In this document: positions 7,131 through 45,266 of the stretch, piece by piece
Layout: the number at the start of each line of letters is the position of its first letter
Numbering within the stretch: position 1 is the first letter of the stretch
Sequence record: OQ834936
From: Shigella phage Henu12
Reading direction: 5' to 3' (one strand)
Length of the DNA: 64,000 bases
Made by a program: the position numbers and the translations under genes
Notes under the pieces: generated by a model
What the model was told of the DNA's origin: nothing
The model's database searches: none
The model's input: only the letters and a program-made list of their open reading frames with translations

Positions 7131-7159
7131 ATTCTAAGGGGCTTTTCAGCCCCTGTCAA
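7131..7159 (-). promoter_or_regulatory. sigma70-like promoter TTGACA-N17-TAGAAT upstream of rIIB, with the GGGGCUGAAAAGCCCC palindrome in the spacer
   Basis: -35 at 7159-7154, -10 at 7136-7131; 16-nt palindrome at 7138-7153. Confidence 0.45.
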
Positions 7160-7167
7160 ACTATTTT

Positions 7168-9540
7168 TTAATCCCAGCATACAGTATCTTCTGGAATGCT
7201 CTTAGTGTCAAAACCTAAAAACTTACCAACTTCGACGGGTGATACTTTATTCCAATCCAGATTAGAAAGCAAGAAGTTTTCTTTACGGCGTTTCTCAAAG
7301 TAATCTTTGAACTTACTTTCAAGACGCTTCTTAGCGTTATCCAGAACCTTTCTTGGCTTACAAGAGCCTCTCATATTCCTGCGAATGGTATCAAGAGTGC
7401 TGGTAATATCTTTGTAAGCAACTGGTGCAGCAGTGTATGCCAAGCGTCCAAACATTGCTTCTATAGCCTCTTCATTCCCCTCTAAGAAAATAGTCTTCTT
7501 AAAGTCTTTACTGTAAATGTGGCCTCTGGACTTACGCTTATCAGCAAACATAAAGTTTCGAGAAATCACATTACAATCAGTAATATCATGATTATTAGTC
7601 ATATATTGGTGAGTCAAGAAACGATGATACTCAATCCAATGTGTAGCATCAATGAAATCTTTCATCACTTGTTCATTGACTTCTGTCCAGTCTTCAGGAA
7701 TCTTTTTCCAGTTGGCTTTACGGAAGACATAAACTGACTGTCCAGTTAACTCTGTCATCAACGTTGCAGCACGTTCTGGTGAACATGAGAAGATTCCACC
7801 AATCACTTCATCACTCTGTGCTTTGATATACAGTTGTGGTTCTTCAATCTCATCAAAGTTCTCTTTAACCTCTGTATAACGAATCATGTAAGTATTTGGA
7901 CATATAAATGCTTTATACAGTTTTACAACACCACGTACAATAGTACGTTTTTCATAGTGGTGCTCTTTAGATGACATTGTATGCACACTTAACAGACTCT
8001 TGTCAAGCATATGCAAAGCTACAAACTCATCAAATTGCTGCTGACTGCTGAACAAGAAAGCAATACCATTGTAGCGACGGAAGTTAGAGTCTTCCTGTTC
8101 ACGGTCACGGCAAGCTCCACGGATAATCTGGTTTTTACCAGTTGTCTTCTCAGACCCGTTCTTGTTTCGACGGTCATTAATAAGGAACAAATAGTTGCTC
8201 AACTTGTCTTTACTCATTGCACCAAAGATACTAAACATTGCTGCATCTTGTGAATAAGTTGCTGAAGTTGCTCGAATACGGTTCTCCAGACTGCTGTACT
8301 TGTAGTATGCTACAGGTTCATACAGATTACCAATATTAGGAACTGGATTACCATCTTTGTCAAGCCTCAAGTTACCTGCATCATCTTTCAAGAATGACGG
8401 AGAACCATCTGCTTCAGTTAACTGACCACGACGGATACCTAACAGTTTTTGTTCAAGCTTTTTCAAGTTCTGGCCTTGCCATTCCAGAGAATCTTGGACG
8501 TGAATAAAGATTTCACGAGCCTCCTTCCTCATGGTATCATAGGCTTGAGCAGCATCAATCAGAGTTGGCTTGTTAGCAATCTCTTTTACCACATCTTCTA
8601 CGATTGTCTTAGTGATTTTCTTCACAGCTTCAACAATCTTGGTCTTAGTGGTCTCATTCATCTGCAATGCTTCACGAGATGCAGCAATAGCCACTGAACC
8701 AATTGGCATGTAGATGTTAACAAGGTCTACAGCACTACGGAAGAACTGAGGCAGAATGTTTGTAAACTCTGAGCCAAGCAACTCACCCATTTCAACCGGA
8801 TAAGCAATGTTACCCATGATTACATTGAAATGGACGCTGTTACTATTTGAGCGCCAGTTCTCTTTGTACTTCATTGCATCATAGACACCATCTTCACGAG
8901 AAATGGAAGTCATTGCTTCAAGAATGTCATAGTACTCAACATTACACTCTGGCTTAACTTTAAAGTACGAGTATACATTGCTCGCTTCTTCATGAAACTT
9001 GTTGATACGGTTATCGGATACCGCTACTCGAACAGCTAAACCATTTGGCTCTGTAGTTGGGTTAGTAGTCAACTTAGTTACTTGAGGGATACCATTCTCA
9101 AGGTAAACTGAGTATTTGTTAACTACACCATCAACATAGCTTGATACAGTGAATGACTGAGCAATTGCAAATGGGGACTTTGAACCGATACCCATAGCAC
9201 CAATGTAGTCGTTTGAATCGTTCTTTGTAGATTCTCCATAGGTCATGTAAAGTTTCATAACTTTATCATGAGTCAGTCCTGTACCAAAGTCACGAACTTC
9301 AAAGAATGGCTCGAAACGAGTTGGTAAGTGAACCAAGAAAGGTTTATCAACGTTACCAGAATCAATGTGAGCATCTACTGCGTTACATGACAATTCACGA
9401 ATTACAGCACGTTCTTTATATGTGTAAACACCTGAGCTTAGAAGACTGAACATTTCAGGTGTCATCTTAATCTGAGCCTGAGAGGTTTCCAGTGTACTTG
9501 AGCTTTTAATTACCGTTGCGTGGTCATTTACCATGCGCAT
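7168..9540 (-). CDS. rIIA: rIIA-like protein (GHKL ATPase-like N-terminus)
   Basis: N-terminus PEMFSLLSS...AVIRELSCNAVDAH...RDFGTGL...IGAMGIGSKSPF matches the T4 rIIA pattern as I recall it. Confidence 0.85.
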   Translation of the reverse strand: MRMVNDHATVIKSSSTLETSQAQIKMTPEMFSLLSSGVYTYKERAVIRELSCNAVDAHIDSGNVDKPFLVHLPTRFEPFFEVRDFGTGLTHDKVMKLYMTYGESTKNDSNDYIGAMGIGSKSPFAIAQSFTVSSYVDGVVNKYSVYLENGIPQVTKLTTNPTTEPNGLAVRVAVSDNRINKFHEEASNVYSYFKVKPECNVEYYDILEAMTSISREDGVYDAMKYKENWRSNSNSVHFNVIMGNIAYPVEMGELLGSEFTNILPQFFRSAVDLVNIYMPIGSVAIAASREALQMNETTKTKIVEAVKKITKTIVEDVVKEIANKPTLIDAAQAYDTMRKEAREIFIHVQDSLEWQGQNLKKLEQKLLGIRRGQLTEADGSPSFLKDDAGNLRLDKDGNPVPNIGNLYEPVAYYKYSSLENRIRATSATYSQDAAMFSIFGAMSKDKLSNYLFLINDRRNKNGSEKTTGKNQIIRGACRDREQEDSNFRRYNGIAFLFSSQQQFDEFVALHMLDKSLLSVHTMSSKEHHYEKRTIVRGVVKLYKAFICPNTYMIRYTEVKENFDEIEEPQLYIKAQSDEVIGGIFSCSPERAATLMTELTGQSVYVFRKANWKKIPEDWTEVNEQVMKDFIDATHWIEYHRFLTHQYMTNNHDITDCNVISRNFMFADKRKSRGHIYSKDFKKTIFLEGNEEAIEAMFGRLAYTAAPVAYKDITSTLDTIRRNMRGSCKPRKVLDNAKKRLESKFKDYFEKRRKENFLLSNLDWNKVSPVEVGKFLGFDTKSIPEDTVCWD

Positions 9541-10113: not shown

Positions 10114-10140
10114 ATTAAAAAGGCTCCCGTAGGAGCCTCT
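10114..10140 (-). terminator. intrinsic terminator GGCUCC-UACG-GGAGCC plus U5
   Basis: Hairpin and U-tract downstream of the Nampt-like gene. Confidence 0.7.
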
Positions 10141-10152
10141 TATCATACTGTT

Positions 10153-11979
10153 TTAAAGTTGCTTGTCAATAGTATTTCGAACATCACGCAGGTTAACGTA
10201 ACCATAAGGTTGCGAGTTACTAAATACCAGTTTCAAAGCACTATGACAGTTGTCAATTGCACCTTCAAACTCTGCAAAGCCAAAACCATCTACAGCTACC
10301 AGCTTGTCACCATCCCACATAGGGACAACTCCACCAAAAGCAGACTTCTTAAGACCGCTGTCAGTTTTAGGGTCTTTAGCCAGCATAATTTCTTGACCAT
10401 CCATCTGTGCAAGAGTTGCTTTAACAGCAAATGCAAAGGTGTCACGAGTCAGGTACTGATAGGTGTATGAGCCTACACCAAACACTACGTTAGAACTTGC
10501 AAAACCTTTATCAGCAAGACGTGACAGAATCTCATTAGCCCTTTCCAGAGTGATAGAATCACCGTAGATTAGCCCAATGTGCTCATCCAGTACTTTGTAC
10601 CCTTTGGAGTTAACAGTGCCACCAAAGATGTTATACAGCGTGTGTATAGCTCCATCAATTTCTGCTGTTAACATACGCTTCACAGTAAACTGTCCAGTTT
10701 TCTGAGCGGTAATCAGGTTGATTGTGTCAATATAATCAAAATCTTCATTTTCAACAACCATCTCATAACCTTCAGAGATTAACCAAGCAGAGAACCCAAA
10801 ACCAATATCAGACATTTCACAATTCAAGATTGTGTCATGCAGATGGGTATTATCTGGTGCAAGACCTTTCATGTGCTTGTAGAACATTGACTTAGCAGTT
10901 TCCCATTCAACGGCTTTGTAACCTGTAACAATGTGAACAGGGTCTCCAGAGTCTGGACGAATTACCAACTTACCATCACGATTCAGAATTACATTACGTA
11001 GCTCTGGCAGAATCTGTGTAACAGTACGCCAGAAGTTGTAAGTATCTGATACGGCACTTGCAATACCAGTTGGGTAAACTTCTGTCAGAAGGCGATGGAA
11101 AGTTTCTACCTCACCACGCCAACGTTTGGCATCTAGTAATCCTTCAGACTGCATAATGTACTGTGAGTGAATATCCTCTTCTGTCAGGTCTTTCATATTC
11201 CATGAAATGTTTGCACACATCACAGAGTGTTCAGTTGCTGGTACAGAGTTGCCAATATCACTGATTGTCATAAACTGACCATAAGCACGTTTAGCAGTAT
11301 ACACAGCAGGGAAGCTGTCAGTACCTTTAAAGCTGGTCAAGTGACCTACAGCATTAAAAGCATCATCTGTGAAGCCAGACATACCACGCATTGCAAAATC
11401 ATGACACTGCCAAGGTAAATGGAAGTCATTGTCACAGGTCTTGTCAGCCCATTGTTTACAGATACGTTTGTAATGCAGTGCAATAGTTGCAATCGTACAA
11501 GCCTTCCAGATTTCAGCAGAGAAAGCATCTTCAAGGTAACCAGCTACCCAATGGAATCCCTCTACAGTGTTTTTAAAGACAATCATCGGGACACGCATAG
11601 GGACAATTGTACCTTCCTCTACAGAGTAGACTTCAACAGGTAGGTAACCCAAGTCATGAAGTTCTTCCCAATGTTGACGACCAATAGCATCTGCACCAAG
11701 GACACCATTCATGATTTCCAAGATTTCGTCAATGGCTTCTTTCTTATCACGTTCAAAGAACGTTGCATTCCAGTGGTCTACCAGATAGTCTTTTACAAAA
11801 CGCTGAATACCAAAGGCTACAACACCATCAATCTCTAACGGAGAGTTAAACCATTTATCTCCACGAGGTGTTAAGTTCAGCATAAGATACTGTGTAGCAT
11901 CTGGATACTGGTAGAAATGGCCAGATTTGTAGGCATCTGCATTAAGTGCTGCTGGTACTGCATAAAGTGATTTAGTCAT
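10153..11979 (-). CDS. nadV: nicotinamide phosphoribosyltransferase (Nampt/NadV)-like protein
   Basis: 608-aa protein with Nampt-family character (by my recognition of the translation); adjacent to the Prs-like gene. Confidence 0.8.
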   Translation of the reverse strand: MTKSLYAVPAALNADAYKSGHFYQYPDATQYLMLNLTPRGDKWFNSPLEIDGVVAFGIQRFVKDYLVDHWNATFFERDKKEAIDEILEIMNGVLGADAIGRQHWEELHDLGYLPVEVYSVEEGTIVPMRVPMIVFKNTVEGFHWVAGYLEDAFSAEIWKACTIATIALHYKRICKQWADKTCDNDFHLPWQCHDFAMRGMSGFTDDAFNAVGHLTSFKGTDSFPAVYTAKRAYGQFMTISDIGNSVPATEHSVMCANISWNMKDLTEEDIHSQYIMQSEGLLDAKRWRGEVETFHRLLTEVYPTGIASAVSDTYNFWRTVTQILPELRNVILNRDGKLVIRPDSGDPVHIVTGYKAVEWETAKSMFYKHMKGLAPDNTHLHDTILNCEMSDIGFGFSAWLISEGYEMVVENEDFDYIDTINLITAQKTGQFTVKRMLTAEIDGAIHTLYNIFGGTVNSKGYKVLDEHIGLIYGDSITLERANEILSRLADKGFASSNVVFGVGSYTYQYLTRDTFAFAVKATLAQMDGQEIMLAKDPKTDSGLKKSAFGGVVPMWDGDKLVAVDGFGFAEFEGAIDNCHSALKLVFSNSQPYGYVNLRDVRNTIDKQL

Positions 11980-11999: not shown

Positions 12000-12015
12000 G
12001 GGGCTTTTCAGCCCC
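12000..12015 (-). other. conserved stem-loop GGGGCU-GAAA-AGCCCC between Prs-like and Nampt-like genes
   Basis: Perfect 6-bp stem with GNRA-type loop; same 16-mer at 7138-7153 and a variant at 45251-45266. Confidence 0.55.
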
Positions 12016-12023: not shown

Positions 12024-12923
12024 TTATTCAATATTTGCTACGGTCACTTGTGAGAAGTGGGAAAGACCACGGTCTTTTTCATCCCCTAGTGAGTTTGTAG
12101 TGTAGATATGGTCGATACCATTGTCAAGGAGATTTTCAACACCTTTAGAGAAAATCCCATGAGTGACATACAGTTCCACACGTTCTGCTCCAGCTTCACG
12201 AAGATACTTTGCAGCCTCGATAAAGGTTCGACCACCGTCACAGATATCATCCAGAATCATGACAGTCTTACCTGTCAAGTCTACATCATCAAGGATTCGC
12301 ATACCAGTGATTTCACCAGTTTTCAGGTTTCGTACCTTAGCCATTGTAATATAAGGTTTATCAACCTCTTTAGCAGCCTCTTCAGTCTTCTTAGCTGCAC
12401 CTGCATCTGGAGCCACTAAGTAATCAATGCGTGGGTCACTTGCAAAGTGGACTGCTGCCTCTTTTTGAGGGAGGTTGTAGAAGCTCTTAAACAAATTCTC
12501 TGCAACATTACTGTGAGTATCCAGAGCACATACTGCATCGAACTCCATAGCATTTACAAGATTTGCAAAGACTTTAAGTGCTGCTGCATCACCTTTAAAC
12601 ATGTGACGGTCATAGCGAGCATTTGGTAAGAATCCAAAGACAACAGTTTTCAGAGTTGCTTTCTGAGGAATCAAACGGTCAATTGCTTCTTTAGCCATAG
12701 CTAATGCAAAGAGTGTGTCTTTGTCATAACCTTGTACTGTGAAGACTACGTTTTCAATCTTACCAGCAGCATGTTCAGCAAAGTCTACTAAGTCTTCTGA
12801 GAAGTTACCACCAATCTCCCCAGAAGGGAACTGGATAATGTTGAAGGTCTCTTGATGAGAACCTTTGGAATTTGAATTAAGTAGAACTCGAATAGTAGTT
12901 TTCATAATATTTCTCTCAGTCAA
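12024..12923 (-). CDS. ribose-phosphate pyrophosphokinase (Prs)-like protein
   Basis: PRPP-binding loop VMILDDICDGGRT; 299 aa. Confidence 0.8.
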   Translation of the reverse strand: MTERNIMKTTIRVLLNSNSKGSHQETFNIIQFPSGEIGGNFSEDLVDFAEHAAGKIENVVFTVQGYDKDTLFALAMAKEAIDRLIPQKATLKTVVFGFLPNARYDRHMFKGDAAALKVFANLVNAMEFDAVCALDTHSNVAENLFKSFYNLPQKEAAVHFASDPRIDYLVAPDAGAAKKTEEAAKEVDKPYITMAKVRNLKTGEITGMRILDDVDLTGKTVMILDDICDGGRTFIEAAKYLREAGAERVELYVTHGIFSKGVENLLDNGIDHIYTTNSLGDEKDRGLSHFSQVTVANIE

Positions 12924-13711: not shown

Positions 13712-13742
13712 AAAATAAAAAGGGAACCTTTTACAGTTCCCT
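13712..13742 (-). terminator. intrinsic terminator AGGGAAC-loop-GUUCCCU plus U-tract
   Basis: Hairpin followed by UUUUUAUUUU on minus RNA, then GGAG RBS of the HNH gene. Confidence 0.6.
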
Positions 13743-13754
13743 AATCATATACGT

Positions 13755-14066
13755 TTACTGAGCTATTTTCAAGACTTTTAAGAAACCTTCCTCACCAATT
13801 GCATCATAAACGTTTTCAGTTGGCTTGATAAGGTTATTCAAGCATACAATTTTCTTACGCTTCTTGTCATAAGTAAGCTTCAGTTGTTTCAACTCTTTGT
13901 CATCTTCAGGGTGCTCATTGTACATCTTCACAGCTTCTTTAAAGCTAATGTAGCCACCACCTAGAGTAAGGAAACCTGTACCACAATAGTGGGAGTTGTG
14001 TTTATCAGCCATAAACTGGCACAGGATAGAAATCTGAATTTTACGAGTGTTATAAACCTTTTCCAT
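13755..14066 (-). CDS. hypothetical protein (103 aa)
   Basis: ORF track. Confidence 0.5.
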   Translation of the reverse strand: MEKVYNTRKIQISILCQFMADKHNSHYCGTGFLTLGGGYISFKEAVKMYNEHPEDDKELKQLKLTYDKKRKKIVCLNNLIKPTENVYDAIGEEGFLKVLKIAQ

Positions 14067-18263: not shown

Positions 18264-18290
18264 GCAAAAAAGGTCTCCGAAGAGACCCTT
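18264..18290 (-). terminator. intrinsic terminator GGGUCUC-UUCG-GAGACC plus U6
   Basis: Hairpin and U-tract immediately upstream of the nrdD RBS. Confidence 0.7.
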
Positions 18291-18299
18291 ATATTAATT

Positions 18300-18500
18300 C
18301 TACTTAGAAAACTTTTCAATAAGCTTTTTAAGCTTTCCGCTCAAATCATGTTTGATATCTAATATCTCAAAGATAACCCATACTAACATAGCTCCAAACA
18401 GAGCACCTTGTTTTAAATCAGTAAATAGGCTAGTAACCATGAATGCCAGAGCAATCATCGGAGCATCTTCAACAAAACCATCCCATAAACGTTTAAGCAT
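18300..18500 (-). CDS. small membrane protein (66 aa)
   Basis: ORF track; two hydrophobic segments. Confidence 0.45.
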   Translation of the reverse strand: MLKRLWDGFVEDAPMIALAFMVTSLFTDLKQGALFGAMLVWVIFEILDIKHDLSGKLKKLIEKFSK

Positions 18501-20080: not shown

Positions 20081-20103
20081 ACCTTTCTCCAAGTTAATTT
20101 TAG

Positions 20104-20123
20104 AGGGTCTTTTACGACCCTCA
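20104..20123 (-). other. stem-loop GAGGGUC-loop-GACCCUC between nrdA and the downstream gene
   Basis: 7-bp perfect inverted repeat; no clear U-tract. Confidence 0.35.
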
Positions 20124-24042: not shown

Positions 24043-24529
24043 TAAGTTTCATGATTTTAGTGATTCTCTTCTCAGCTTCATCATAAGTCTCTTTTGTAAG
24101 AAACTTGATTGCTGCAATGTTTGCATTGTAGAAGAGTCGAAGCTTAGAGTCAATCCTTTTTGTCATGACGTCAAACTTATGTTGTAGGTTAGCTTCGCCG
24201 TAAACTAAGCCACCTCGCGTATAGTAAGTCTGGATAATGTAGAAGTCAAATTCTTTTTCACCAAATGCTTCAATATCTTTCTTGATGTACTCAGAAGAAG
24301 TTTGGTAGACCATCCAATCACTTTCTTTTGTCACTACTTTACGTCTGGTCTTTCCAGCAACCTTCTTCTTAGTGATACTGTTAAACTGCTTTTTACCCAA
24401 ATAATATTGACCAGTCTTTTTACAGTATACTAAGTAGACAAATCCGAAGTACTTAGCGGGGTCAATCTCCCCGCATAGTGAAATCCAGTGACCATAAGTA
24501 GGGCAATTGCCAAAACCTTTAATCTTCAT
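24029..24529 (-). CDS. GIY-YIG-like nuclease domain protein (possible homing endonuclease)
   Basis: Segment FGFVYLVYCKKTGQYYLGKK resembles the GIY-(10 aa)-YIG motif. Confidence 0.4.
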   Translation of the reverse strand: MKIKGFGNCPTYGHWISLCGEIDPAKYFGFVYLVYCKKTGQYYLGKKQFNSITKKKVAGKTRRKVVTKESDWMVYQTSSEYIKKDIEAFGEKEFDFYIIQTYYTRGGLVYGEANLQHKFDVMTKRIDSKLRLFYNANIAAIKFLTKETYDEAEKRITKIMKLNERV

Positions 24530-25026
24530 TCATAAGTTTCTCCGTGATTTGCAAACTCTCTGTGGAGTTCTTCTCTTTTCTTTCTAATTGCTTCTTTGGC
24601 ATCATCAACGTTATCAAACAGACCAAGGAAATGTGTTACACCGTGAACCATAATCCTTGCTCTCCACTTCTGTGAAGCTTTGTTGAATGATACACCTTTT
24701 ACACCAGATGTATTGTTGGAGTGTATTTTTCTATTCCAACAATTTTCAGCTTGAGTGCAAACTCTCAAGTTCATTCTTCGGTTGTCATCAGTAATTCCGT
24801 TACGATGGTCTACACGGTCTGGTAAGAACCCCTCTGTGTAAAGAATGGCTAAATCATGAGCCATGTATGATTTTCTCTTTATGGTAATCCTGATATAACC
24901 CCTTTTATGGGGTGTTCCAGCAACTGAACCAATGACTGTCCTATTAGCCGATTTCTTCAACCAAGTAAAGACCCCTGTTTCGGGGTCATAGTGTAGATAT
25001 TCTTTAAGAATCTGCCGAGTTAACAT
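24526..25026 (-). CDS. HNH homing endonuclease with AP2-like DNA-binding domain
   Basis: Motifs YDPETGVFTW, VDHRNGITDDNRRMNLRVCTQAENCWN and a C-terminal AP2-like block; paralogue of the 34605-35120 gene. Start set at internal Met (track 25062). Confidence 0.65.
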   Translation of the reverse strand: MLTRQILKEYLHYDPETGVFTWLKKSANRTVIGSVAGTPHKRGYIRITIKRKSYMAHDLAILYTEGFLPDRVDHRNGITDDNRRMNLRVCTQAENCWNRKIHSNNTSGVKGVSFNKASQKWRARIMVHGVTHFLGLFDNVDDAKEAIRKKREELHREFANHGETYE

Positions 25027-26077
25027 TTGGTGTCCACCCATACTTATCAAAAGTGAAATCATCTTTCTTATTTCTTTCCTGATAAGCTAAGAAAAAGTGT
25101 TGCTGCATTAACTCTAAAGGTGTTCTGGTAATTGTCTGACCATCCCATGAAACATAAGTGTAAGAGTCTTTCTTAGCATACAGTTCATAAATTGCATCAA
25201 GACATTCTTTGTAAGTAGTTTTACCTTCAAGAGCTTTCATTACTGCAACTTTACCAGCACCCTTTAAACCGAAGTAGTTATCTGCGTTATCACCAGCTAC
25301 GGCTTGGTAGCAGAGGAATTTAAATCCTACTCCAACTGTCTTCTTAGCTTTTGGTGTAGATTTTATTGGGCAATCCCAAATTTCACCAACGTTATTATCA
25401 GCGATAAAAATCAATGGGGCTTTCTCATAAGTCATATCAATGCAGTAAGTACCTTCAGCTTGTCGAAGGTCTTTGTCAATACTCATGAGGGCAGCTTTTT
25501 TACCCATCTTTTCAGCTTTTGCAATAACGATAGAGTCAGCTTCAAACCCATCAAGAATCAGCTTAAACTCTGGTCGTGACAGAAGATACTCACGACAAGC
25601 AACTAGGTGTGTAGGTGTTACAGCTTCTTTTCTGTTACCTTGGTATTGGTGTTCAAGACCTTTGATATCCTTGTGTTTGTGAACACCTTTCTCAGTAAGG
25701 TAACCCATCCATTTGCGTTCTTTACCAACGACTTTCAACCACTCCTGAAGAACTTGCTGTGTAGCCATAATTGCTTCAGCTTCACTTTTAGCTTCTTTCC
25801 AAGTCTGTCTTTCCCATTCATCTTCATCAAAGTCAAGTCCTAACTCTTCAGTTAAAACTCTTTGGTCAGACAACCATTGTGCTGCCAGTTTTGCACTATC
25901 AAAAGCATCGGATTCTTCAGCAGTGATTTTATTCACATACTTGTACTTTGCTTTTTCAACTACACAAGCACCTTTGTAAGCAATGCTATCAGAGTCAATA
26001 AAGACGTGTGTAACGCTCTCTGGGAGCTTTGTTAAGGTGTATTGTTCCATTGTACTCTCCATACGAAAAAGCCCCAT
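25004..26077 (-). CDS. 5'-3' exonuclease / flap endonuclease (RNase H-like)
   Basis: Motif AVAGDNADNYFGLKGAGKVAVMKALEG resembles the 5'-nuclease helix-3-turn-helix signature. Confidence 0.65.
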   Translation of the reverse strand: MGLFRMESTMEQYTLTKLPESVTHVFIDSDSIAYKGACVVEKAKYKYVNKITAEESDAFDSAKLAAQWLSDQRVLTEELGLDFDEDEWERQTWKEAKSEAEAIMATQQVLQEWLKVVGKERKWMGYLTEKGVHKHKDIKGLEHQYQGNRKEAVTPTHLVACREYLLSRPEFKLILDGFEADSIVIAKAEKMGKKAALMSIDKDLRQAEGTYCIDMTYEKAPLIFIADNNVGEIWDCPIKSTPKAKKTVGVGFKFLCYQAVAGDNADNYFGLKGAGKVAVMKALEGKTTYKECLDAIYELYAKKDSYTYVSWDGQTITRTPLELMQQHFFLAYQERNKKDDFTFDKYGWTPNVNSADS

Positions 26078-31908: not shown

Positions 31909-34608
31909 ATGGACAATGTAGATTTCGAAAAATTACATTTGGTTGGTGATACAGAAACTGATGGGTTGCTCCTTGAGTTTACAAAAGCACACGTAATGGC
32001 TTTCGCAGACTATAAAGATGACAGTGATGAACCTGCTGTGTGGGTTTTCACTGATGAGCCTATTCTTGGTCACAAGTATACAAAATACATCAAAGGTGGT
32101 CTGCGTGAAGGTGTTGAGTTTGCACTGAAAGCTAAACGTCTTTGTATCCACAATGGTCTTGGTTATGACTGGTGGGTGTTTAATCACATTGCACCTGACC
32201 TGTGGAACTTTGAGAATCCTAAGTGTAAGCCTTGGAGTGACTTCTTTCAGGATTCACTTATCCAATCTCGCGTACAGTGGATGGATAGACCTACACCAAA
32301 AGGTTACAAAGGTGCTCATGGTTTGGCTGCATGGGGTGCTCGTGTTGGTGTTCGTAAACCAGAGATTGAAGAGTGGGGTGTATGGAATGCAGAGATTCTT
32401 ACTCGTGTTGTAGAAGATATTAAGATTAACGCCAAAACTAAACGTGCTCTTGATAATGAGTACCTTAAGCTTAAGAAGTGTGGTGTTGACACTTATGAAA
32501 CCTATATGCGAGCTAAAGAAACATCTTTCTGGATGAGCCAGCAAGCTATCAACGGTTGGAAAGCTGATGTAGAACTTATGCAGTTCCATGTTAAAGAACT
32601 TGACAAGTTAACTAATGAGTTAGCTGCTGAGGTTGAGCCACACCTGCCACCAACTATCAAGACAAAAGGTAAGGTCACAGGTGAAGAGTTTGCTAAGTCT
32701 TGGAATGAGTATGTGGATACATTTGGTCACGTTGACGGCTTAAAAAGGATTACCAAGTACCCTAAGACAAAGTATCGTGAACAGATGCGTGAAGGTGAGT
32801 TGAAGCAATACCCTATCAAGCCATATGGAAAGCCAACTACAAAGATTTTTAACGTTGAGAAACGTAACTGCTACACACCAACTAATACGGTTACCAAAGA
32901 AGAGTACCCTGAAGGTTTCGTAGCAATGAAAGATGCTCGTGCAGTTTGTAATGAACTGAATGAGAAGATTGGGAAGAAGTGTAAAGATTGGAAACCAGTT
33001 AAGACTGTGAAGATTGTGAAGTACTATAATGTGCATGTTGTAAATCACTTCGAGTTGGAGTCAAGTCGCTACACTGGTTTGATTGATGCACCATTCACAC
33101 CAATTGAGTTTGAAGTTTCACGAATGACTCAGGTAGCTGTGGTGAAGGATTACTTAAAATCTGTTGGTTGGATTCCTGATGATTGGAACTACAAAAAAGA
33201 TTCTGATGGTCGTCCGGTTAAGGTTTGCAGATTCAAAGACAACAAAAAGATGATTCGCAAACATCCTAAGTGGGATGAGATGGTTGAGCGTTGTGGGTTG
33301 AACTATATTGAGCATGAAGGTGTCTATTACATCGAGCATAACTGGTCTGTTAAGAAGTACACAGATGTGCTTGAGCCTTGCTTGATTAGGACTTCACCAA
33401 AGCTTACAGAGTCTTCTTATGATACAATCGAAGGTGAGCTTGGACAGAAGATTGCGAAGTACTATACTTTGATGCACCGACGCAGGACTATTGAGAACTC
33501 AAAGGATGATGAGAAAGGTTGGCTGAACCAGATTCGTCCAGATGGTCGTTTGAGTGCAGGTGCAATGGTGTTTGGTACTTCTACTGGACGTATGACTCAG
33601 TATGGTATTGTAAACGTACCTTCTGGTGCTGCTGTTTACGGTGAGCCAATGAGGGCAGTGTGGATTTGTGAAGAGGGAACCAACGTAGTATCTGTTGATA
33701 TGAACTCTGCACAGCTTGTACTACTCTGTAACTTCATGGGTGATAAAGACTTCACCAAAGCGGTAACAGAGGGTAAAGAAGAGATTGAGTTTGTTCGTCA
33801 AGAGGATGGAAGATACTACTGCAAACACTTTGACCAGTATCTGAATCCAGAGATTGACAAGTATCTGCGTTATGACTCTGAAAACGATTTGTACGTAGTT
33901 TACTCAGGGACTGATGCTCACACTCTGAACAGTATCTACTTCAGCCTTAATGATGAGCAAGATATCTTGACTTGTCGTGCTACTCAGGATGAGAATCTTC
34001 TTCATGAGATTAGCAAGGGACGTAAGAAAGCTAAGAATGGTATCTATGCCCTGTTGTTCGGTGCAGGTGATGAGAAGTTTGCTAAAACAATTAAAGCAGC
34101 AACTACTCAGGAAGGTGCATTGACTAAGCAGACTTACTTTGTGCGCTTGCCGAAGATTAAGAAACTGTTAGACAACTTGGAAGCTGATTTCAAAGCAACT
34201 AAGAAAGCACTTGAAGAGGTGTTTGGTAAAACTGCTGCGATAGCTAAAGGTGGTTTTGTGAAGGTTGCTGGAGCTTGGCTGTGGTGTAAGTCTCCACACA
34301 AGCTGTTAAATTACCTTTTGATGGGTTCAGAAAGTCAAGTCCAGAATGAAGCAATTAACCTTGCATGTCGTCGTATGATTGATGAAGGTTTGATGAAGTT
34401 GAATGGTCGTAAACCAGCTATTGGCGCTCGCTTACTCTGTGCTTACCACGACGAAACAAGTTGGGAATGTCCAGAGCACATGACAGCAGATGTGAAAGCA
34501 GTAACTGACTGGTATTATGGTCAAGCATCTAAGAACCTTGGACTAAGGAAAGAAACCTTGGTAACAGGTACTGGTAAAGTTGGTAAGAGCTGGTATGAGG
34601 TACATTGA
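31909..34608 (+). CDS. DNA polymerase, family A (T7 gp5-like) with 3'-5' exonuclease domain
   Basis: DTETDG exo motif; HGLAAWGARVG, YALLFGAGDEK and HDE blocks resemble T7 DNA polymerase. Confidence 0.9.
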   Translation: MDNVDFEKLHLVGDTETDGLLLEFTKAHVMAFADYKDDSDEPAVWVFTDEPILGHKYTKYIKGGLREGVEFALKAKRLCIHNGLGYDWWVFNHIAPDLWNFENPKCKPWSDFFQDSLIQSRVQWMDRPTPKGYKGAHGLAAWGARVGVRKPEIEEWGVWNAEILTRVVEDIKINAKTKRALDNEYLKLKKCGVDTYETYMRAKETSFWMSQQAINGWKADVELMQFHVKELDKLTNELAAEVEPHLPPTIKTKGKVTGEEFAKSWNEYVDTFGHVDGLKRITKYPKTKYREQMREGELKQYPIKPYGKPTTKIFNVEKRNCYTPTNTVTKEEYPEGFVAMKDARAVCNELNEKIGKKCKDWKPVKTVKIVKYYNVHVVNHFELESSRYTGLIDAPFTPIEFEVSRMTQVAVVKDYLKSVGWIPDDWNYKKDSDGRPVKVCRFKDNKKMIRKHPKWDEMVERCGLNYIEHEGVYYIEHNWSVKKYTDVLEPCLIRTSPKLTESSYDTIEGELGQKIAKYYTLMHRRRTIENSKDDEKGWLNQIRPDGRLSAGAMVFGTSTGRMTQYGIVNVPSGAAVYGEPMRAVWICEEGTNVVSVDMNSAQLVLLCNFMGDKDFTKAVTEGKEEIEFVRQEDGRYYCKHFDQYLNPEIDKYLRYDSENDLYVVYSGTDAHTLNSIYFSLNDEQDILTCRATQDENLLHEISKGRKKAKNGIYALLFGAGDEKFAKTIKAATTQEGALTKQTYFVRLPKIKKLLDNLEADFKATKKALEEVFGKTAAIAKGGFVKVAGAWLWCKSPHKLLNYLLMGSESQVQNEAINLACRRMIDEGLMKLNGRKPAIGARLLCAYHDETSWECPEHMTADVKAVTDWYYGQASKNLGLRKETLVTGTGKVGKSWYEVH

Positions 34609-35120
34609 TGCGAGATTGTGGATTCACACATGAACAGTTAAAGTCTTGGTTAAACTATGACCCCGAAACAGGGGTCTTAACGTGGATTGGCAGGCCTCCA
34701 CATAGTAGTAGGGTGGTTATTGGGAGCCAAGCCGGAGCAATCAAGCGCACAAGGTCTGGTGTGTATATGCACACACAGATTTTAGGATACAGGACAGGCA
34801 ATCACCGAATTGCTTGGTTCTGGATGACAGGCAAGTGGCCTGATAAACACATTGACCACAAAGATGGAGATGGTTTGAATAACGCTTGGGACAATCTCAG
34901 GGAGGCCACAAAAGAACAGAACATGTCTAATAGGAGACAACCCAGAACATCAAAAAACTTAAAAGGTACAAGTAGAAGCAAGTCTGGTAAGTGGATAGCC
35001 CAGATTAACCATAATGGCAAGACTATACATATAGGTACATACACAACAGAAGAAGAAGCCCATAAAGCTTACTGTGAAGCTGCTATTAAACTCCACGGAG
35101 AGTTTGCAAAACTAAGTTGA
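34605..35120 (+). CDS. HNH homing endonuclease with AP2-like domain
   Basis: YDPETGVLTW, IDHKDGDGLNNAWDNLREATKEQN and AP2-like C-terminus; ATGA overlap with the polymerase stop. Confidence 0.7.
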   Translation: MMRDCGFTHEQLKSWLNYDPETGVLTWIGRPPHSSRVVIGSQAGAIKRTRSGVYMHTQILGYRTGNHRIAWFWMTGKWPDKHIDHKDGDGLNNAWDNLREATKEQNMSNRRQPRTSKNLKGTSRSKSGKWIAQINHNGKTIHIGTYTTEEEAHKAYCEAAIKLHGEFAKLS

Positions 35121-42009: not shown

Positions 42010-42010
42010 A

Positions 42011-42050
42011 AACAAAAAAGGCTCCCGTAAAAAGGAGCCTTAGAATTATT
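42011..42050. terminator. bidirectional intrinsic terminator (GGCUCC-loop-GGAGCC flanked by A- and U-runs) at the convergence point
   Basis: Hairpin 42020-42039 with A6 upstream and U-rich downstream; sits between the thyA stop and the stop of the 42046-42420 gene. Confidence 0.6.
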
Positions 42051-42614: not shown

Positions 42615-42663
42615 TTAATCACCTTACTTCTTGAGCCAAGATGGTGAGAATACCTACTAAGAA

Positions 42664-42692
42664 ATATTAACACCATCTTGACAGTTAGTCAA
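42664..42692 (-). promoter_or_regulatory. sigma70-like promoter TTGACT-N17-TAATAT bracketed by a perfect 10-bp inverted repeat (CAAGATGGTG, 42637-42646 and 42671-42680)
   Basis: -10 lies inside the 24-bp loop of the inverted repeat; operator-like arrangement. Confidence 0.45.
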
Positions 42693-42700
42693 CAAGGTAA

Positions 42701-45232
42701 TTATGCAGTTCTTACCCAAGCCATTAGTTTAATGTAAGTGTTAAGAACACTGAATGCTGCACCAGAACCAGTTGCCCCAGTGTTACCACTTAATGTGTGG
42801 GCATGAGCACCAATTGTCACAGTGTGTGTATGGTTACCATCGCCAGCAGCACTACCAGAGAATCCGTGAGCGTGGTCACCTACAGCTTCTGTTGCTTGAT
42901 AACCTGCAACACCAGCCCATTGACCAGCAGCACCGACATAAGCAAACTGCTGAGAAGTGTTCAGGTAACGAACTGCAACATTATGGGCGTGACCACCCGC
43001 ACCAGCCGTTGAACCAGACACAGAGTGTCCATGCCAACCATTTAATGAAGTCCCAATCGTCCCGTGGTCATGTGTAGATGTTGTTGCAGAGAAACTATGT
43101 GTATGACTTGGAAGATGACCTACAGCAATACTCTTAGAGTCTGAGCCACCTACAGAACCAACATCCTCACCAGTTGAAGAGGCAATTCTAATAGTTCTGA
43201 ACTGACCATTTGATAGGTAAGCCCAAGTAGTTCCTGCAAATGCTGTATTAGGGTTTACATTCGATGCAAAGAACGTTACCATACCAACTGGATAGATTTT
43301 GTTAAGGTCTGTTGAGTTAGAAATAGCTGTTGCAATCTTCTGGTCAGTCTCTGCTTTAGTGTAAGCTCCAACATCTCCAGCAGAAGGTTTCTGGAAAGTG
43401 TTGTAATCAATTACCACATAACCATCAACCGCATTAGCTGGCTTAGTAGATGACACAGTAGGAGCAGAATGGACAGTAATAACTGCACCATTGACACCCT
43501 GAAACTCTACCAGAGTACCCATCGCATATGGCCCAACTTGTAAGTAAACATCATAGTTATCTCCACCAACTGAAACAGTACATACATCAACACCAACACC
43601 ACTATCTGTACTTCTGTAAAGAACAGCATTTAGACCCGATGGGTTTGCATTTCCACTTCTCAATACTAGTTCATTTTTACCACACTGATTAAATGAACCA
43701 ACGTTGAAACCTGTACCACCATAGAGTCTTAAAGTTGCTGTTGATGGTGTTTGTGGCATTGTTACAGTAGCAATTTTCACCCAACCACTGTCATAAGTTG
43801 TTGCATTCATAGCAGTAGCTCTTGAGAATACAGTATTAGCAACACTTTGTGTGTAGTACCTTGCATCAAAGTTAGATACATCTGTAGGGATAACTTGACC
43901 TTCAACTCTTAAAGGTTTATTGAGATAAGCTACATCCCTTAACTCTAGATATGTATTCACCTTATAGTTGTGAAAGCGAATAACATCAGAACTGTCGAAA
44001 TTACCAATAAACCATCTACCAGCACCAGTACTATCTTTTGCAATAACCCCGTTGCTATTCATTGGCTGGGTATTCTGAAGAACTAGTGGAACTCCATCTG
44101 CAAGAATAGTTTGAGCACCTGTGAAAGTGTTTGCAGAGTTATTTCTTGCAAGACTACTTAATGTTGCAGCCGGAATATATCTTGAGTCAAAGTTAGCAAA
44201 GTCAGATGGTTTAACCTGACCAGTCACATTCAGAGGCTTGCTGAAGAAGAACTCTGTAGAGAGTCTCATAGTTGCACCTGTCATCTGGTTAAACAAGTTA
44301 ACATCCTGCTTAGTCCCATCAGGTTGACCAAGATACCAAGACTCTGAACCAGAACCTGCGTAGGCTTGAACAAATACTGCACCGTTTGCTGTAGCTGGTT
44401 TCAATCTAAGCAAAGACCCATCAGAAATAATTGTCTGATAGTTTGTGAAGTTGTTTGCACCTGAGAAGGTATTATTTTCAGTTAGTCTTGCAAATCTTTG
44501 GTCAGCAGCATTCTGAGTGAAGTATCTAGCATCTAAGTTAGAGAAGTCAGAAGGTTGAACTTGACCAGTGATTCTTAGTGTTTTATTGATAGCAATATCA
44601 TTAGTGAGATTAACTAGGGAACCGGTCTTGTTGTTGTAGAAAATAACATCGTCACTTCCTGAATCATTACCTACATACCACCTATTAGCTCCAGTACTAT
44701 CCTGGCCTCTGATATACAACGGTGAGTTCTCAGAAGAGTTTTTTAACCTAATAGCTTCACCATTTGCTTGAATAACTTGTTGGGAGGTAAAGATGTTATT
44801 TGCAGCTAGTCTTGAGTATCTTGCATCATTTTCCTCATTTGTTCTCATACCCAAATCAGCAGGGCTTGGTTTATTTAGAGTATGGTAAACAAATGCTGTT
44901 CTTGTTGCATCAGAAACCTTCAAAGCTAACCCATTAGCGTTAATTTTAAAAGTCTTGGCAACATCCCCTAAAATAATCTCAGAAGAACCTGTTGGGTCTA
45001 ATAAATCTTTTCCACCGTAAGTTAACTTAACAATACCCAGATTACCTGTCATATTCCCGCCAGCTAATTGCAAGAATCTTTCAAGTCTGAATGAAGCTAA
45101 GAAGTTTGCATAGGTCATTTTACGGTCTTCATCACCTAGCATATCTGACCTTTTAATTACTCTCAAATGTAATAGGTCGTCTGAGCGAACTGTATCAATT
45201 GTGTTTAGTTCACTTAGTTTGTATTCAGCCAT
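42701..45232 (-). CDS. tail fibre protein with internal roughly 100-aa repeats and C-terminal His-x-His repeat domain
   Basis: Three tandem modules each ending (V/I)xGQVxPxDxxNFDxRY; C-terminal HxH motifs (HGHSV, HAHNV, HAHGF, HTHTV, HAHTL). Confidence 0.75.
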   Translation of the reverse strand: MAEYKLSELNTIDTVRSDDLLHLRVIKRSDMLGDEDRKMTYANFLASFRLERFLQLAGGNMTGNLGIVKLTYGGKDLLDPTGSSEIILGDVAKTFKINANGLALKVSDATRTAFVYHTLNKPSPADLGMRTNEENDARYSRLAANNIFTSQQVIQANGEAIRLKNSSENSPLYIRGQDSTGANRWYVGNDSGSDDVIFYNNKTGSLVNLTNDIAINKTLRITGQVQPSDFSNLDARYFTQNAADQRFARLTENNTFSGANNFTNYQTIISDGSLLRLKPATANGAVFVQAYAGSGSESWYLGQPDGTKQDVNLFNQMTGATMRLSTEFFFSKPLNVTGQVKPSDFANFDSRYIPAATLSSLARNNSANTFTGAQTILADGVPLVLQNTQPMNSNGVIAKDSTGAGRWFIGNFDSSDVIRFHNYKVNTYLELRDVAYLNKPLRVEGQVIPTDVSNFDARYYTQSVANTVFSRATAMNATTYDSGWVKIATVTMPQTPSTATLRLYGGTGFNVGSFNQCGKNELVLRSGNANPSGLNAVLYRSTDSGVGVDVCTVSVGGDNYDVYLQVGPYAMGTLVEFQGVNGAVITVHSAPTVSSTKPANAVDGYVVIDYNTFQKPSAGDVGAYTKAETDQKIATAISNSTDLNKIYPVGMVTFFASNVNPNTAFAGTTWAYLSNGQFRTIRIASSTGEDVGSVGGSDSKSIAVGHLPSHTHSFSATTSTHDHGTIGTSLNGWHGHSVSGSTAGAGGHAHNVAVRYLNTSQQFAYVGAAGQWAGVAGYQATEAVGDHAHGFSGSAAGDGNHTHTVTIGAHAHTLSGNTGATGSGAAFSVLNTYIKLMAWVRTA

Positions 45233-45250
45233 TTATCAATCCTCTTTATA

Positions 45251-45266
45251 GGGGCTGTGTAGCCCC
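45251..45266 (-). other. stem-loop GGGGCU-N4-AGCCCC between the two tail fibre genes
   Basis: Same arms as the 7138-7153 and 12000-12015 elements; 18 nt upstream of the fibre ATG. Confidence 0.5.

What the first reader, a model, noticed from the sequence alone, without database searches (positions are those of the whole stretch)
7138..45266. Family of GGGGCU-N4-AGCCCC stem-loops in short spacers between co-transcribed genes
Seen: the perfect 16-mer GGGGCTGAAAAGCCCC (minus-strand reading) occurs at 7138-7153 between rIIA and rIIB and at 12000-12015 between the Prs-like and Nampt-like genes; GGGGCTACACAGCCCC occurs at 45251-45266 between the two tail-fibre genes. Each lies 18-50 nt upstream of the downstream start codon and lacks a U-tract, unlike the UUCG-loop terminators elsewhere in the window. 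Inference: RNA processing/stability or translation-coupling elements, or binding sites for a phage protein; the arms are palindromic so a DNA-level role is also possible.
Basis: seen in the sequence. Interest (0 to 1): 0.5.

Follow-up and report, generated by a model that had tools for sequence, protein, structure and literature searches.

The report
Conserved hairpins between phage gene pairs
Three identical small G/C-rich hairpins sit between paired genes of a Felix O1-like phage; one fills the spacer of a conserved promoter, and all three most likely act as leaky transcription stops or RNA-end protectors, which is a known kind of phage regulatory element rather than a new one.

Summary
GGGGCT-N4-AGCCCC occurs exactly three times in the window (0 expected), on the coding (minus) strand, 8-14 nt after the stop codons of rIIA, prs and a tail-fibre gene. 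It lies 50, 20 and 18 nt before the next start codon, and there is no U-tract. The window is a Mooglevirus (Ounavirinae). A complete related genome has only these three copies.

Across 65 distinct relatives the arms are constant and the loops vary, often by simple inversion.

That promoter is conserved across three genera, so rIIB has its own promoter. This is the anatomy of the T4-type 'PeSL' composite promoter/stem-loop cassettes.

Sites 2 and 3 keep a -35-like hexamer and the hairpin but have no usable -10, and they lie 4-6 nt upstream of the Shine-Dalgarno. GenBank records of relatives already annotate these sites, as a promoter at site 1 and as terminators at sites 2 and 3.

Other genera have different U-poor hairpins, or a canonical terminator, at the same junctions.

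Best reading: RNA-level leaky attenuators or 3'-end stabilisers, combined with a promoter at site 1. This is a new member of a known kind, of modest interest.

The parts
7137..7154 (-). Site 1 hairpin AGGGGCU-GAAA-AGCCCCU (7 bp, GNRA loop). It fills the spacer of the rIIB promoter.
   Evidence: folded -12.9 kcal/mol; dominant local structure
7154..7159 (-). -35 hexamer TTGACA of the rIIB promoter. Its last A is the first base of the 7-bp stem.
   Evidence: 11/12 match, 17-nt spacer; TTGACA in 22 of 23 distinct relatives and TTGACT in one; annotated 'promoter' in AYO145A
7131..7136 (-). -10 hexamer TAGAAT of the rIIB promoter, starting 1 nt after the 6-bp stem.
   Evidence: TAGAAT in 21 and TAAAAT in 2 of 23 distinct relatives
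12000..12015 (-). Site 2 hairpin GGGGCU-GAAA-AGCCCC, 8 nt after the prs stop and about 5 nt before the GAGAGAG Shine-Dalgarno of nampt. No promoter hexamers.
   Evidence: annotated 'terminator' in AYO145A; replaced by an HNH gene in some relatives
45250..45267 (-). Site 3 hairpin AGGGGCU-ACAC-AGCCCCU between the two tail-fibre genes, about 4 nt before the AAGAGG Shine-Dalgarno. Flanked by TTTATA and TATAAA, which is not a valid -10.
   Evidence: annotated 'terminator' in Moogle, wV8 and Felix O1 (t76)
20103..20122 (-). Related U-poor hairpin with other arms (GAGGGUC-GUAAAA-GACCCUC), 13 nt after the nrdA stop. Same functional class, not the same motif.
   Evidence: the orthologous nrdA junctions of Zyzzx and SE5 hold different U-poor hairpins
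7168..9540 (-). rIIA, upstream gene of site 1
5966..7087 (-). rIIB, downstream gene of site 1
12024..12923 (-). Ribose-phosphate pyrophosphokinase (Prs), upstream gene of site 2
10153..11979 (-). Nicotinamide phosphoribosyltransferase (Nampt), downstream gene of site 2
45278..46486 (-). Tail-fibre/baseplate gene A (Gp10_C domain), upstream gene of site 3
42701..45232 (-). Tail-fibre gene B (gp37_trimer domain), downstream gene of site 3

Best explanation
The three elements are short, very stable RNA hairpins that form in the sense transcripts just after the stop codons of rIIA, prs and tail-fibre gene A.

Site 1 is a composite element of the PeSL type described in T4-like phages. [quoted passage not shown] Transcripts arriving from rIIA contain the hairpin and are attenuated or end-protected there. 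Transcripts started at the embedded promoter begin about 7 nt downstream of TAGAAT and never contain it.

Sites 2 and 3 are promoter-less versions. They keep a -35-like hexamer and the hairpin, have no usable -10, and sit 4-6 nt upstream of the next gene's Shine-Dalgarno. The U-tract is missing, so they cannot be efficient intrinsic terminators. They most likely let most polymerases through, while stopping a fraction and/or blocking 3'-exonucleases. That would set the ratio of upstream to downstream message within each gene pair.

Shown: presence, position, conservation, the promoter hexamers, and strand-specific pairing in variants. Inferred: attenuation or stabilisation activity, promoter activity, and the effect on the expression ratio.
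For: - The motif is real and non-random. There are only three copies in the complete 89-kb Henu11 genome, at the same junctions.
- Site 1 lies inside TTGACA-N17-TAGAAT (11/12). Hexamers, spacing (17 or 18) and arms are conserved in Mooglevirus, Suspvirus and Felixounavirus, while the loop and the sequence downstream of -10 diverge. It is annotated as a promoter in AYO145A.
- In Felix O1 gel RT-PCR, rIIB peaks at 10 min and rIIA at 25 min, which fits a separate rIIB promoter.
- Arbiol 2010: PeSL stem-loops are polyG...polyC and most commonly lie between -35 and -10 or over the -10. One reduced lacZ expression as much as rrnB T1. Degraded PeSLs keep the -35 and the stem-loop without a -10.
- Other registers of the same composite idea occur in this subfamily: -10 directly followed by a hairpin in the window; the -35 in the loop of an 8-copy Zyzzx cassette whose fifth pair covaries; a hairpin over the -10 at Zyzzx rIIA-rIIB.
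- RNA level and sense strand: the G.U plus A-U to G-C variant at site 3; different U-poor hairpins at the orthologous rIIA-rIIB and nrdA junctions in Kolesnikvirus and Zyzzx; canonical U-tract terminators at the orthologous tail-fibre junction in those genera.
- The hairpin is the dominant local fold and leaves the Shine-Dalgarno free.
- Sites 2 and 3 have been called rho-independent terminators by TransTerm or WebGeSTer in relatives.
Against: - No transcript ends have been mapped in any Ounavirinae phage that I could find, so attenuation, stabilisation and promoter activity are all inferred.
- U-tract scores are low (T about 0.6-1.9 at sites 1 and 2, against 2.5-4.3 for canonical terminators here). 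The scan tool does not call any of the three sites.
- Covariation within the clade is thin: 3 of 7 pairs never vary and there is one both-sided change in 4 sequences.
- The hairpin at site 2 is dispensable. It is replaced by an HNH gene in several relatives and is absent in Kolesnikvirus, where the gap is 13 nt.
- Only 16-25 nt are shared between the three sites, far less than the ~100 bp shared by T4-type PeSLs.
- I did not see whether the PeSL stem-loop tested by Arbiol et al. carried a U-tract.
Confidence: 0.55

Rival explanations
1. Pure mRNA stability or processing elements. The hairpins never stop polymerase. They act only as barriers to 3'-exonucleases (or as 5' caps after RNase E cleavage), so the upstream and downstream halves of one transcript have different half-lives.
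For: - There is no U-tract, and the tail is not conserved between genera while the hairpin is.
- The hairpins sit right after stop codons and just before AU-rich, Shine-Dalgarno-containing spacers.
- Mooglevirus, Suspvirus and Kolesnikvirus copies have extra-stable GNRA loops in the sense strand.
Against: - The orthologous tail-fibre junction holds a true U-tract terminator in two other genera.
- In Felixounavirus, sites 2 and 3 are followed by UUUU.
- At site 1 the downstream gene has its own promoter, which is expected if read-through is reduced.
- A PeSL stem-loop acted as a strong terminator or attenuator in vivo.
Confidence: 0.2
2. Relics without a present function at sites 2 and 3: degraded copies of a site-1-like promoter/hairpin cassette left behind by recombination. 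The palindrome would be kept perfect by template-switch correction rather than by selection.
For: - Flanks at sites 2 and 3 look like decayed promoter boxes (TTTATA...TATAAA or TAGAAA; CTTTA...ACTTTG).
- Loop inversions are frequent (6 reverse-complement pairs against 0.65 expected), showing that the palindromes undergo DNA-level template switching.
- Site 2 can be lost.
Against: - The arms are unchanged in 18 (site 2) and 24 (site 3) distinct sequences spanning genera whose coding DNA is only 75-82% identical, while loops and flanks change.
- Template switching preserves complementarity but not a fixed sequence.
- The few arm variants still fold.
Confidence: 0.1
3. DNA-level operator. The 16-bp perfect palindrome binds a dimeric phage protein that represses the rIIB promoter at site 1 and acts as a roadblock at sites 2 and 3.
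For: - It is a perfect palindrome with half-sites one helical turn apart, and the arm sequence is identical at three loci.
- At site 1 it covers the promoter spacer.
- How Felix O1 times its transcription is unknown.
Against: - The site 3 variant is symmetric only as RNA, through a G.U pair.
- Orthologous junctions in other genera have unrelated sequences.
- Equally strict arm reuse is seen in ordinary terminators: GGGACTC/GAGTCC about 8 times in SE5, GGGGTCT/AGACCCC about 8 times in Zyzzx.
- Sites 2 and 3 have no promoter to regulate.
Confidence: 0.07
4. Recognition hairpins for a phage RNA-binding factor, for example a nut/boxB-like antitermination site or a translational operator.
For: - There is a superficial likeness to lambda boxB (from my own knowledge: a short GC stem with a purine-rich GNRA-like loop and no U-tract).
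- Both early copies in the window have a GAAA loop.
- How transcription passes the many terminators in Felix O1 is an open question.
Against: - Loops are not conserved (4, 9 and 11 loop types) and flip orientation freely, whereas boxB-type recognition is loop-specific.
- Rfam has no match.
- No N-like factor is known in these phages.
Confidence: 0.04

Closest known systems
PeSL (promoter-early stem-loop) composite promoter/terminator cassettes of T4-like phages (Arbiol, Comeau, Krisch 2010, PMC2839356; Comeau 2014, PMC4122927)
   Same: - The layout runs from the upstream stop codon in an AT-rich stretch, through a sigma-70-type -35/-10 with ~17-nt spacing, to a Shine-Dalgarno and start codon.
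- The polyG...polyC stem-loop lies between -35 and -10, the commonest PeSL subclass.
- G.U pairs occur in stems.
- Degraded copies keep the -35 and stem-loop but lose the -10, as at sites 2 and 3 here.
- The other PeSL registers (over the -35, over the -10, just after the -10) are also seen in Ounavirinae genomes.
   Different: - The phage subfamily is different (Ounavirinae, not T4-like).
- There are only three copies, sharing 16-25 nt rather than ~100 bp.
- They lie between conserved, functionally paired genes rather than flanking ORFans in hyperplastic regions. Site 2 is, however, an insertion hot spot in relatives.
- No activity data exist.
Canonical intrinsic (Rho-independent) terminators
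   Same: - GC-rich 6-7 bp stem with a tetraloop, just downstream of a stop codon.
- Called terminators by TransTerm, WebGeSTer or curators in Felix O1 (t76), wV8, Moogle and AYO145A.
- The orthologous tail-fibre junction has a true terminator in Zyzzx and SE5.
   Different: - There is no U-tract: 2-4 U in the first 8 nt, against 5-8 for the UUCG/UACG-loop terminators of the same window.
- They sit inside operons, immediately before a required downstream gene.
Intercistronic stabiliser hairpins in polycistronic mRNAs (for example REP in malEFG and the puf operon hairpins; recalled from my own knowledge, not tested here)
   Same: A stable hairpin without a U-tract between two cistrons of one operon. 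The predicted effect is a different abundance of the upstream and downstream segments.
   Different: Those elements are longer or host-specific repeats. No decay or end-mapping data exist for the phage hairpins.
Lambda-type nut boxB hairpin
   Same: A short GC stem with a GAAA-type loop and no U-tract, in an early transcript.
   Different: The loop is not conserved and flips orientation. No boxA or N-like factor is known here. One copy lies in the late tail-fibre operon.

Membership tests
PeSL composite promoter/stem-loop cassette | Sigma-70-like -35 and -10 boxes with about 17-nt spacing | tested here: met
   Site 1 only: TTGACA-N17-TAGAAT, 11/12, conserved with a 17- or 18-nt spacer in 23 distinct relatives. 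Sites 2 and 3 fail this feature: no call at the hairpins, and the -10 candidates ACTTTG and TATAAA lack the required bases.
PeSL composite promoter/stem-loop cassette | Stable G-tract/C-tract stem-loop placed between -35 and -10, over either box, just upstream of -35 or just downstream of -10 | tested here: met
   At site 1 the stem-loop 7154..7137 fills the spacer exactly. Definition taken from Arbiol 2010.
PeSL composite promoter/stem-loop cassette | AT-rich region with the upstream stop codon on the 5' side; Shine-Dalgarno and start codon on the 3' side | tested here: met
   Read directly: TAAAAAATAGT precedes the -35, and AAAGAGAGA then ATG follow at site 1.
PeSL composite promoter/stem-loop cassette | Many copies sharing about 100 bp, concentrated in hyperplastic regions, flanking ORFans and indels | tested here: not met
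   There are three copies per genome, only 16-25 nt are shared, and they lie between conserved gene pairs. Partial exception: the site 2 junction carries an HNH insertion in some relatives, and three inserted ORFs flanked by repeat cassettes in Zyzzx.
PeSL composite promoter/stem-loop cassette | Demonstrated promoter and terminator/attenuator activity | not testable with these tools
   Needs reporter fusions or transcript-end mapping. The only indirect hint is the different RT-PCR timing of rIIA and rIIB in Felix O1.
Canonical intrinsic terminator | GC-rich stem of at least 5 bp with a 3-8 nt loop | tested here: met
   6-7 bp stems with 5 G-C pairs and a tetraloop, -11.3 to -12.9 kcal/mol.
Canonical intrinsic terminator | U-rich tract immediately after the stem (at least 5 U in 8 nt) | tested here: not met
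   The tails are UUAGAAUA, ACUUUGAG and UAUAAAGA. None is called by the scan. T-scores are 0.0-1.0 in Henu11, against 2.5-4.3 for canonical ones. Felixounavirus site 3 reaches UUUU (T up to 3.7).
Lambda-type nut (boxB) antitermination site | Conserved loop sequence recognised by the antiterminator | tested here: not met
   There are 4, 9 and 11 loop types at the three sites, many of them reverse complements of each other.
Lambda-type nut (boxB) antitermination site | Adjacent boxA and a cognate N-like protein | not tested
   No search for boxA or an N-like protein was made. The Felix O1 paper reports no polymerase-modifying proteins.
Any curated RNA family (Rfam 15) | Match at the gathering threshold | tested here: not met
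   0 matches in the whole window.

The most novel reading that the evidence does not exclude
The GGGGCU-stem hairpins are recognition sites for an unidentified phage-encoded RNA-binding (or DNA-binding) factor. This factor would coordinate read-through or turnover at three gene-pair junctions (rIIA/rIIB, Prs/Nampt, the two tail fibres). The lineage-specific arm sequences (GGGGCU in Felix/Moogle/Susp, GGGGUCU in Zyzzx) would reflect co-evolution with that factor. If true, it would answer the open question of how Felix O1-like phages, which have no RNA polymerase or sigma factor of their own, time their transcription and pass their many terminators.
Probability: 0.06. Interest if true: 0.7.

Novelty: new member of a known kind. 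Interest (0 to 1): 0.3.

Why it matters
Felix O1-like phages are widely used for typing and biocontrol, yet their transcription programme is essentially unmapped. The original genome paper states that it is not known how transcription gets past the numerous terminators or how it is timed.

Site 1 is a promoter wrapped around an attenuator hairpin, and the same composite logic appears in several registers across the subfamily. This gives a simple, testable answer for at least part of that question: each stop can carry its own restart.

It also extends the PeSL concept beyond T4-like phages. It flags the prs-nampt junction as a recombination and insertion hot spot.

For annotation, one and the same 16-mer is currently labelled 'promoter' at one site, 'terminator' at others, and not annotated in most records.

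Tried and rejected
1. More members: relaxing to 2 mismatches found none, and the rest of the Henu11 genome adds none. There is only a one-mismatch relative, GGGGCT-AAAA-AGCCCT, in the tRNA region, and swapped-arm terminators (AGCCCC...GGGGCT plus a T-tract).
2. The GACCCCGAAACAGGGGTC palindromes at 24970-24987 and 34659-34676 looked like a second U-poor family preceded by ACTAT. They are the codons for DPETGV in the YDPETGV motif of two HNH_3 endonuclease genes, so I rejected them.
3. I first took the Zyzzx hairpin TTTACA-A-GGGGTC-N6-GACCCC as a double compensatory change at site 3. A tblastn orthology check showed it sits one junction upstream, so I withdrew it as covariation evidence.
4. Promoters at sites 2 and 3: there is no valid -10. 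The TATAAA at site 3 is not conserved; relatives have TAGAAA, TATTAA, TTTAAG and TTTCTA.
5. Invariant arms as evidence for a specific binding factor: rejected after the control showed the canonical terminator after Nampt is just as invariant.
6. Genome-wide promoter-hairpin coupling in the window: 3 of 21 strong hairpins against a 4% background. This is suggestive only.
7. Rfam: no match.
8. Literature on Ounavirinae transcript mapping: none found.
9. A 2026 preprint on promoter-terminator coupling in bacteria appeared in the search results but could not be opened.
10. MAFFT alignment of site 3 introduced gaps that hid the pairing, so I used fixed-length windows instead.
Full report
**Observation**

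The pattern GGGGCTNNNNAGCCCC occurs three times in the 64-kb window, at 7138-7153, 12000-12015 and 45251-45266, against 0.00 expected in 100 dinucleotide-preserving shuffles. Allowing two mismatches adds nothing.

Read on the minus strand, which is the coding strand at all three places, sites 1 and 2 are GGGGCTGAAAAGCCCC and site 3 is GGGGCTACACAGCCCC. Sites 1 and 3 have a seventh A-U pair.

| Site | nt from upstream stop codon to stem | nt from stem to next ATG | Tail after the stem |
|---|---|---|---|
| 1 | 14 | 50 | UUAGAAUA |
| 2 | 8 | 20 | ACUUUGAG |
| 3 | 11 | 18 | UAUAAAGA |

None of the three is called by the terminator scan. The UUCG/UACG-loop hairpins of the window are called and do carry T-tracts. 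Each hairpin is the dominant local RNA fold and leaves the Shine-Dalgarno unpaired.

**Source and gene context**

- The window is a Mooglevirus (Ounavirinae, Felix O1-like). It is 100% identical to Shigella phage Henu11 around rIIA/rIIB and 100% identical to Citrobacter phage Moogle around the tail fibres.
- Pfam and the relatives' annotation confirm rIIA/rIIB, Prs/Nampt and two tail-fibre genes as the flanking pairs.
- The complete Henu11 genome (89 kb) has exactly the same three copies and no others.

The hairpin is precisely the 17-nt spacer of TTGACA-N17-TAGAAT (7159..7131, minus strand), an 11/12 match to the sigma-70 consensus.

In 23 distinct relatives from Mooglevirus, Suspvirus and Felixounavirus:
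- the -35 is TTGACA (once TTGACT);
- the -10 is TAGAAT (twice TAAAAT);
- the spacer is 17 or 18 nt;
- the arms are unchanged;
- the loop and the sequence downstream of the -10 diverge.

The AYO145A record annotates this element as a promoter. Transcripts from this promoter would start about 7 nt past TAGAAT, so they would not contain the hairpin. Only read-through transcripts from rIIA would.

In Felix O1 gel RT-PCR, rIIB peaks at 10 min and rIIA at 25 min. This is weak but consistent evidence for a separate rIIB promoter.

**Sites 2 and 3**

Neither site has a usable -10. Both are preceded by a -35-like hexamer:
- site 2: CTTTA, or CTTTATA in Felixounavirus;
- site 3: TTTATA, or TTTACA in Felixounavirus.

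Both end 4-6 nt before the Shine-Dalgarno.

Relatives' records already call these sites rho-independent terminators: site 2 in AYO145A; site 3 in Moogle, in wV8, and in Felix O1 as t76.

**Conservation and its controls**

Across 65 distinct hairpin-bearing sequences the arms are GGGGCT/AGCCCC. The loops come in 4, 9 and 11 types at sites 1, 2 and 3.

This does not by itself point to a sequence-specific reader. The canonical U-tract terminator downstream of Nampt has equally invariant arms in the same genomes. Arm reuse is also a subfamily habit:
- GGCTCC/GGAGCC and GGTCTC/GAGACC recur in the window;
- GGGGTCT/AGACCCC occurs about 8 times in Hafnia phage Zyzzx;
- GGGACTC-TTCG-GAGTCC occurs about 8 times in Kolesnikvirus SE5.

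A formal pair count on 35 distinct 24-nt windows gives:
- 93% of cells paired;
- three pairs that never vary;
- one both-sided change (closing pair A-U to G-C in four sequences);
- a G-C to G.U change of the neighbouring pair in the same four sequences.

That variant (GGGGGCT/AGCCCTC) is the Felix O1 t76 sequence. It pairs fully only in the sense-strand RNA.

Two site 1 variants weaken one pair (AACCCC). One site 2 variant shifts register to a 5-bp stem.

**Loops flip**

Six pairs of loop variants at the same site are reverse complements of each other:
- site 1: TTGA/TCAA;
- site 2: TGAA/TTCA and TAAA/TTTA;
- site 3: TTAT/ATAA, TGAT/ATCA and TGAA/TTCA.

The expectation is 0.65, and 0 of 20,000 shuffles reach six. 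Some flips occur between genomes with identical flanks. The terminator after Nampt shows the same flip, TACG/CGTA.

The palindromes therefore invert at the DNA level. Loop orientation is not selected in Felixounavirus, which argues against loop-specific recognition of the boxB type.

**More distant genera**

| Junction | Felix/Moogle/Susp | Zyzzx | Kolesnikvirus (SE5, Pistou) |
|---|---|---|---|
| rIIA-rIIB | GGGGCT hairpin in the promoter spacer | TTGACA-N17-TCTAAT with a different hairpin over the -10 | GGGCUG-GAAA-CAGCCC, no promoter hexamers |
| nrdA (orthology checked by tblastn) | GAGGGUC/GACCCUC at window 20122..20103 | GGGGUCU/AGACCCC | GGGUCGG/CCGACCC |
| tail fibre A-B | GGGGCT hairpin, U-poor or UUUU | canonical U-tract terminator | canonical U-tract terminator |
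| prs-nampt | GGGGCT hairpin, or an HNH gene in its place in several Felixounaviruses and some Moogle-like genomes | three extra ORFs, each flanked by a repeated hairpin/promoter cassette | no hairpin (13-nt gap) |

The rIIA-rIIB and nrdA junctions hold a U-poor hairpin in every lineage examined, but with different sequences.

What is conserved is a hairpin at certain gene-pair junctions. The sequence is not conserved, and the hairpin is dispensable at site 2.

**Comparison with the known**

Arbiol et al. 2010 describe PeSLs in T4-like phages. These are strong sigma-70-like promoters combined with polyG...polyC stem-loops. [quoted passage not shown] One stem-loop reduced lacZ expression as much as rrnB T1. 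Comeau et al. 2014 describe degraded PeSLs that keep the -35 and the stem-loop but lose the -10.

Site 1 has this anatomy, and sites 2 and 3 resemble the degraded form.

The other registers also occur in Ounavirinae:
- -10 immediately followed by a terminator hairpin in the window (10169..10118, 13772..13721, 18319..18269);
- the -35 inside the hairpin loop in an 8-copy Zyzzx cassette whose fifth stem pair covaries (T-A, A-T, G-C), 17 nt upstream of TAnnnT;
- promoter plus 5' hairpin plus leader, four copies, in the part of Henu11 outside the window.

The differences from PeSLs:
- there are only three copies;
- only 16-25 nt are shared;
- they lie between conserved gene pairs rather than around ORFans.

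In the window as a whole, promoter-hairpin coupling is only suggestive (3 of 21 hairpins against a 4% background). Rfam has no match.

**Mechanism**

I commit to RNA-level hairpins acting on read-through transcripts, as leaky attenuators and/or 3'-exonuclease barriers. At site 1 this is combined with a restart promoter.
- Shown: the position, the conservation, the promoter hexamers, and strand-specific pairing in variants.
- Inferred: all activities.

No transcript-end mapping exists for this subfamily in the literature I could search. The Felix O1 paper itself says it is not known how transcription passes the many terminators, or how it is timed.

The rivals are pure stability elements, functionless relics at sites 2 and 3, a DNA operator, and a factor-binding RNA site. 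I weigh them in the rival list. None is excluded, but each is less economical than the main reading.

**Verdict**

The finding is real and conserved but not strange. It is a new member of a known kind of phage regulatory element, and relatives' records already annotate the sites piecemeal. The modest new points are the PeSL-type reading in a non-T4 subfamily, the subfamily-wide reuse of arms, and the loop flip-flop. Interest is 0.3.

Noticed in passing
window 10118-10169, 13721-13772, 18269-18319 (minus strand): Sigma-70-like promoters (TTGACA-N16-TATGAT, TTGAAA-N17-TATGAT, TTGAAA-N17-TAATAT) whose -10 is immediately followed by a U-tract terminator hairpin. Transcripts from the promoter would start inside the stem. 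This is the PeSL-like 'downstream of -10' register, and it is conserved in relatives for the one after Nampt.
   Followed up: partly
window 4138-4155, 10121-10138, 42018-42041; 18272-18287, 22396-22413: Canonical terminators reuse the same arms (AGGCTCC/GGAGCCT three times, GGTCTC/GAGACC twice). The same habit with other arms is seen in Zyzzx (GGGGTCT/AGACCCC, about 8 times) and SE5 (GGGACTC/GAGTCC, about 8 times). This suggests homogenisation or copy-paste of hairpin cassettes within lineages.
   Followed up: partly
sites 1-3 in loci L011-L101; terminator after Nampt in L052 and L060: Hairpin loops flip. Six reverse-complement loop pairs occur among variants at the three sites (0.65 expected; 0 of 20,000 shuffles reach six), and the Nampt terminator shows TACG/CGTA. 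This indicates recurrent DNA-level inversion of short perfect palindromes.
   Followed up: yes
window 20103-20122 (minus strand): A U-poor hairpin GAGGGTC-GTAAAA-GACCCTC lies 13 nt after the nrdA stop. The orthologous junctions in Zyzzx and SE5 hold different U-poor hairpins. It belongs to the same functional class as the finding, with other arms.
   Followed up: partly
window 24970-24987 (minus strand) and 34659-34676 (plus strand): Identical palindromes GACCCCGAAACAGGGGTC lie inside two HNH_3 homing-endonuclease ORFs (24526..25062, and 34605..35120 which is HNH_3 plus AP2). They encode DPETGV of the YDPETGV motif and are a coding coincidence, not regulatory hairpins.
   Followed up: yes
L008 (BPS15Q2) 336-827; L042, L043, L045, L046, L050: A free-standing HNH endonuclease gene sits between prs and nampt in several relatives and replaces the site 2 hairpin. 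In those genomes the nampt start changes from ATGACT to ATGAGT, as expected from co-conversion during homing.
   Followed up: partly
L009 (Henu11) 41770-43600, outside the window: A four-copy cassette: TTGACA/TTGCAA-N17-TAAAGT, about 9 nt, the hairpin GGGGAGG-GAGA-CTTCCCC (with a sense-strand G.U pair), then the conserved leader ACTAAACAAAATTCCTAAACTGGAG and ATG. This is an early promoter with a 5'-terminal hairpin in front of small ORFs.
   Followed up: partly
L077/L078 (Zyzzx) 29114, 29991, 30450, 37218, 40264, 42632, 43111, 46617; minus strand 4795: A cassette of about 50 bp in at least eight full copies, plus a shorter variant at 29991. The hairpin loop is the -35 (TTGnnn), and a TAnnnT hexamer follows 17 nt later. 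The fifth stem pair covaries (T-A, A-T, G-C). Copies flank three small ORFs inserted between prs and nampt.
   Followed up: partly
window 35117-35160 (plus strand): TTGACA runs directly into a 24-nt hairpin AAGGTGCTC-ATGGAA-GAGTACCTT, followed by ATACTAT. The spacing is too long for a normal sigma-70 promoter. A similar 'TTGACA/TTTACA then hairpin' adjacency recurs at a Zyzzx terminator and in the 57-bp Felix O1 repeat quoted by Whichard et al.. Unexplained.
   Followed up: no
window 42018-42041: A hairpin between convergent genes (thymidylate synthase on the plus strand, a small ORF on the minus strand), with a T-tract on the minus strand. Felix O1 lists the orthologous hairpin in both orientations, as terminators t79 and t80.
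   Followed up: no
whole window compared with L009/L010: The window is not colinear with Henu11 even though it is 100% identical at rIIA/rIIB. The tail-fibre region matches Moogle exactly and differs from Henu11. The genome is therefore a mosaic among Mooglevirus isolates.
   Followed up: no
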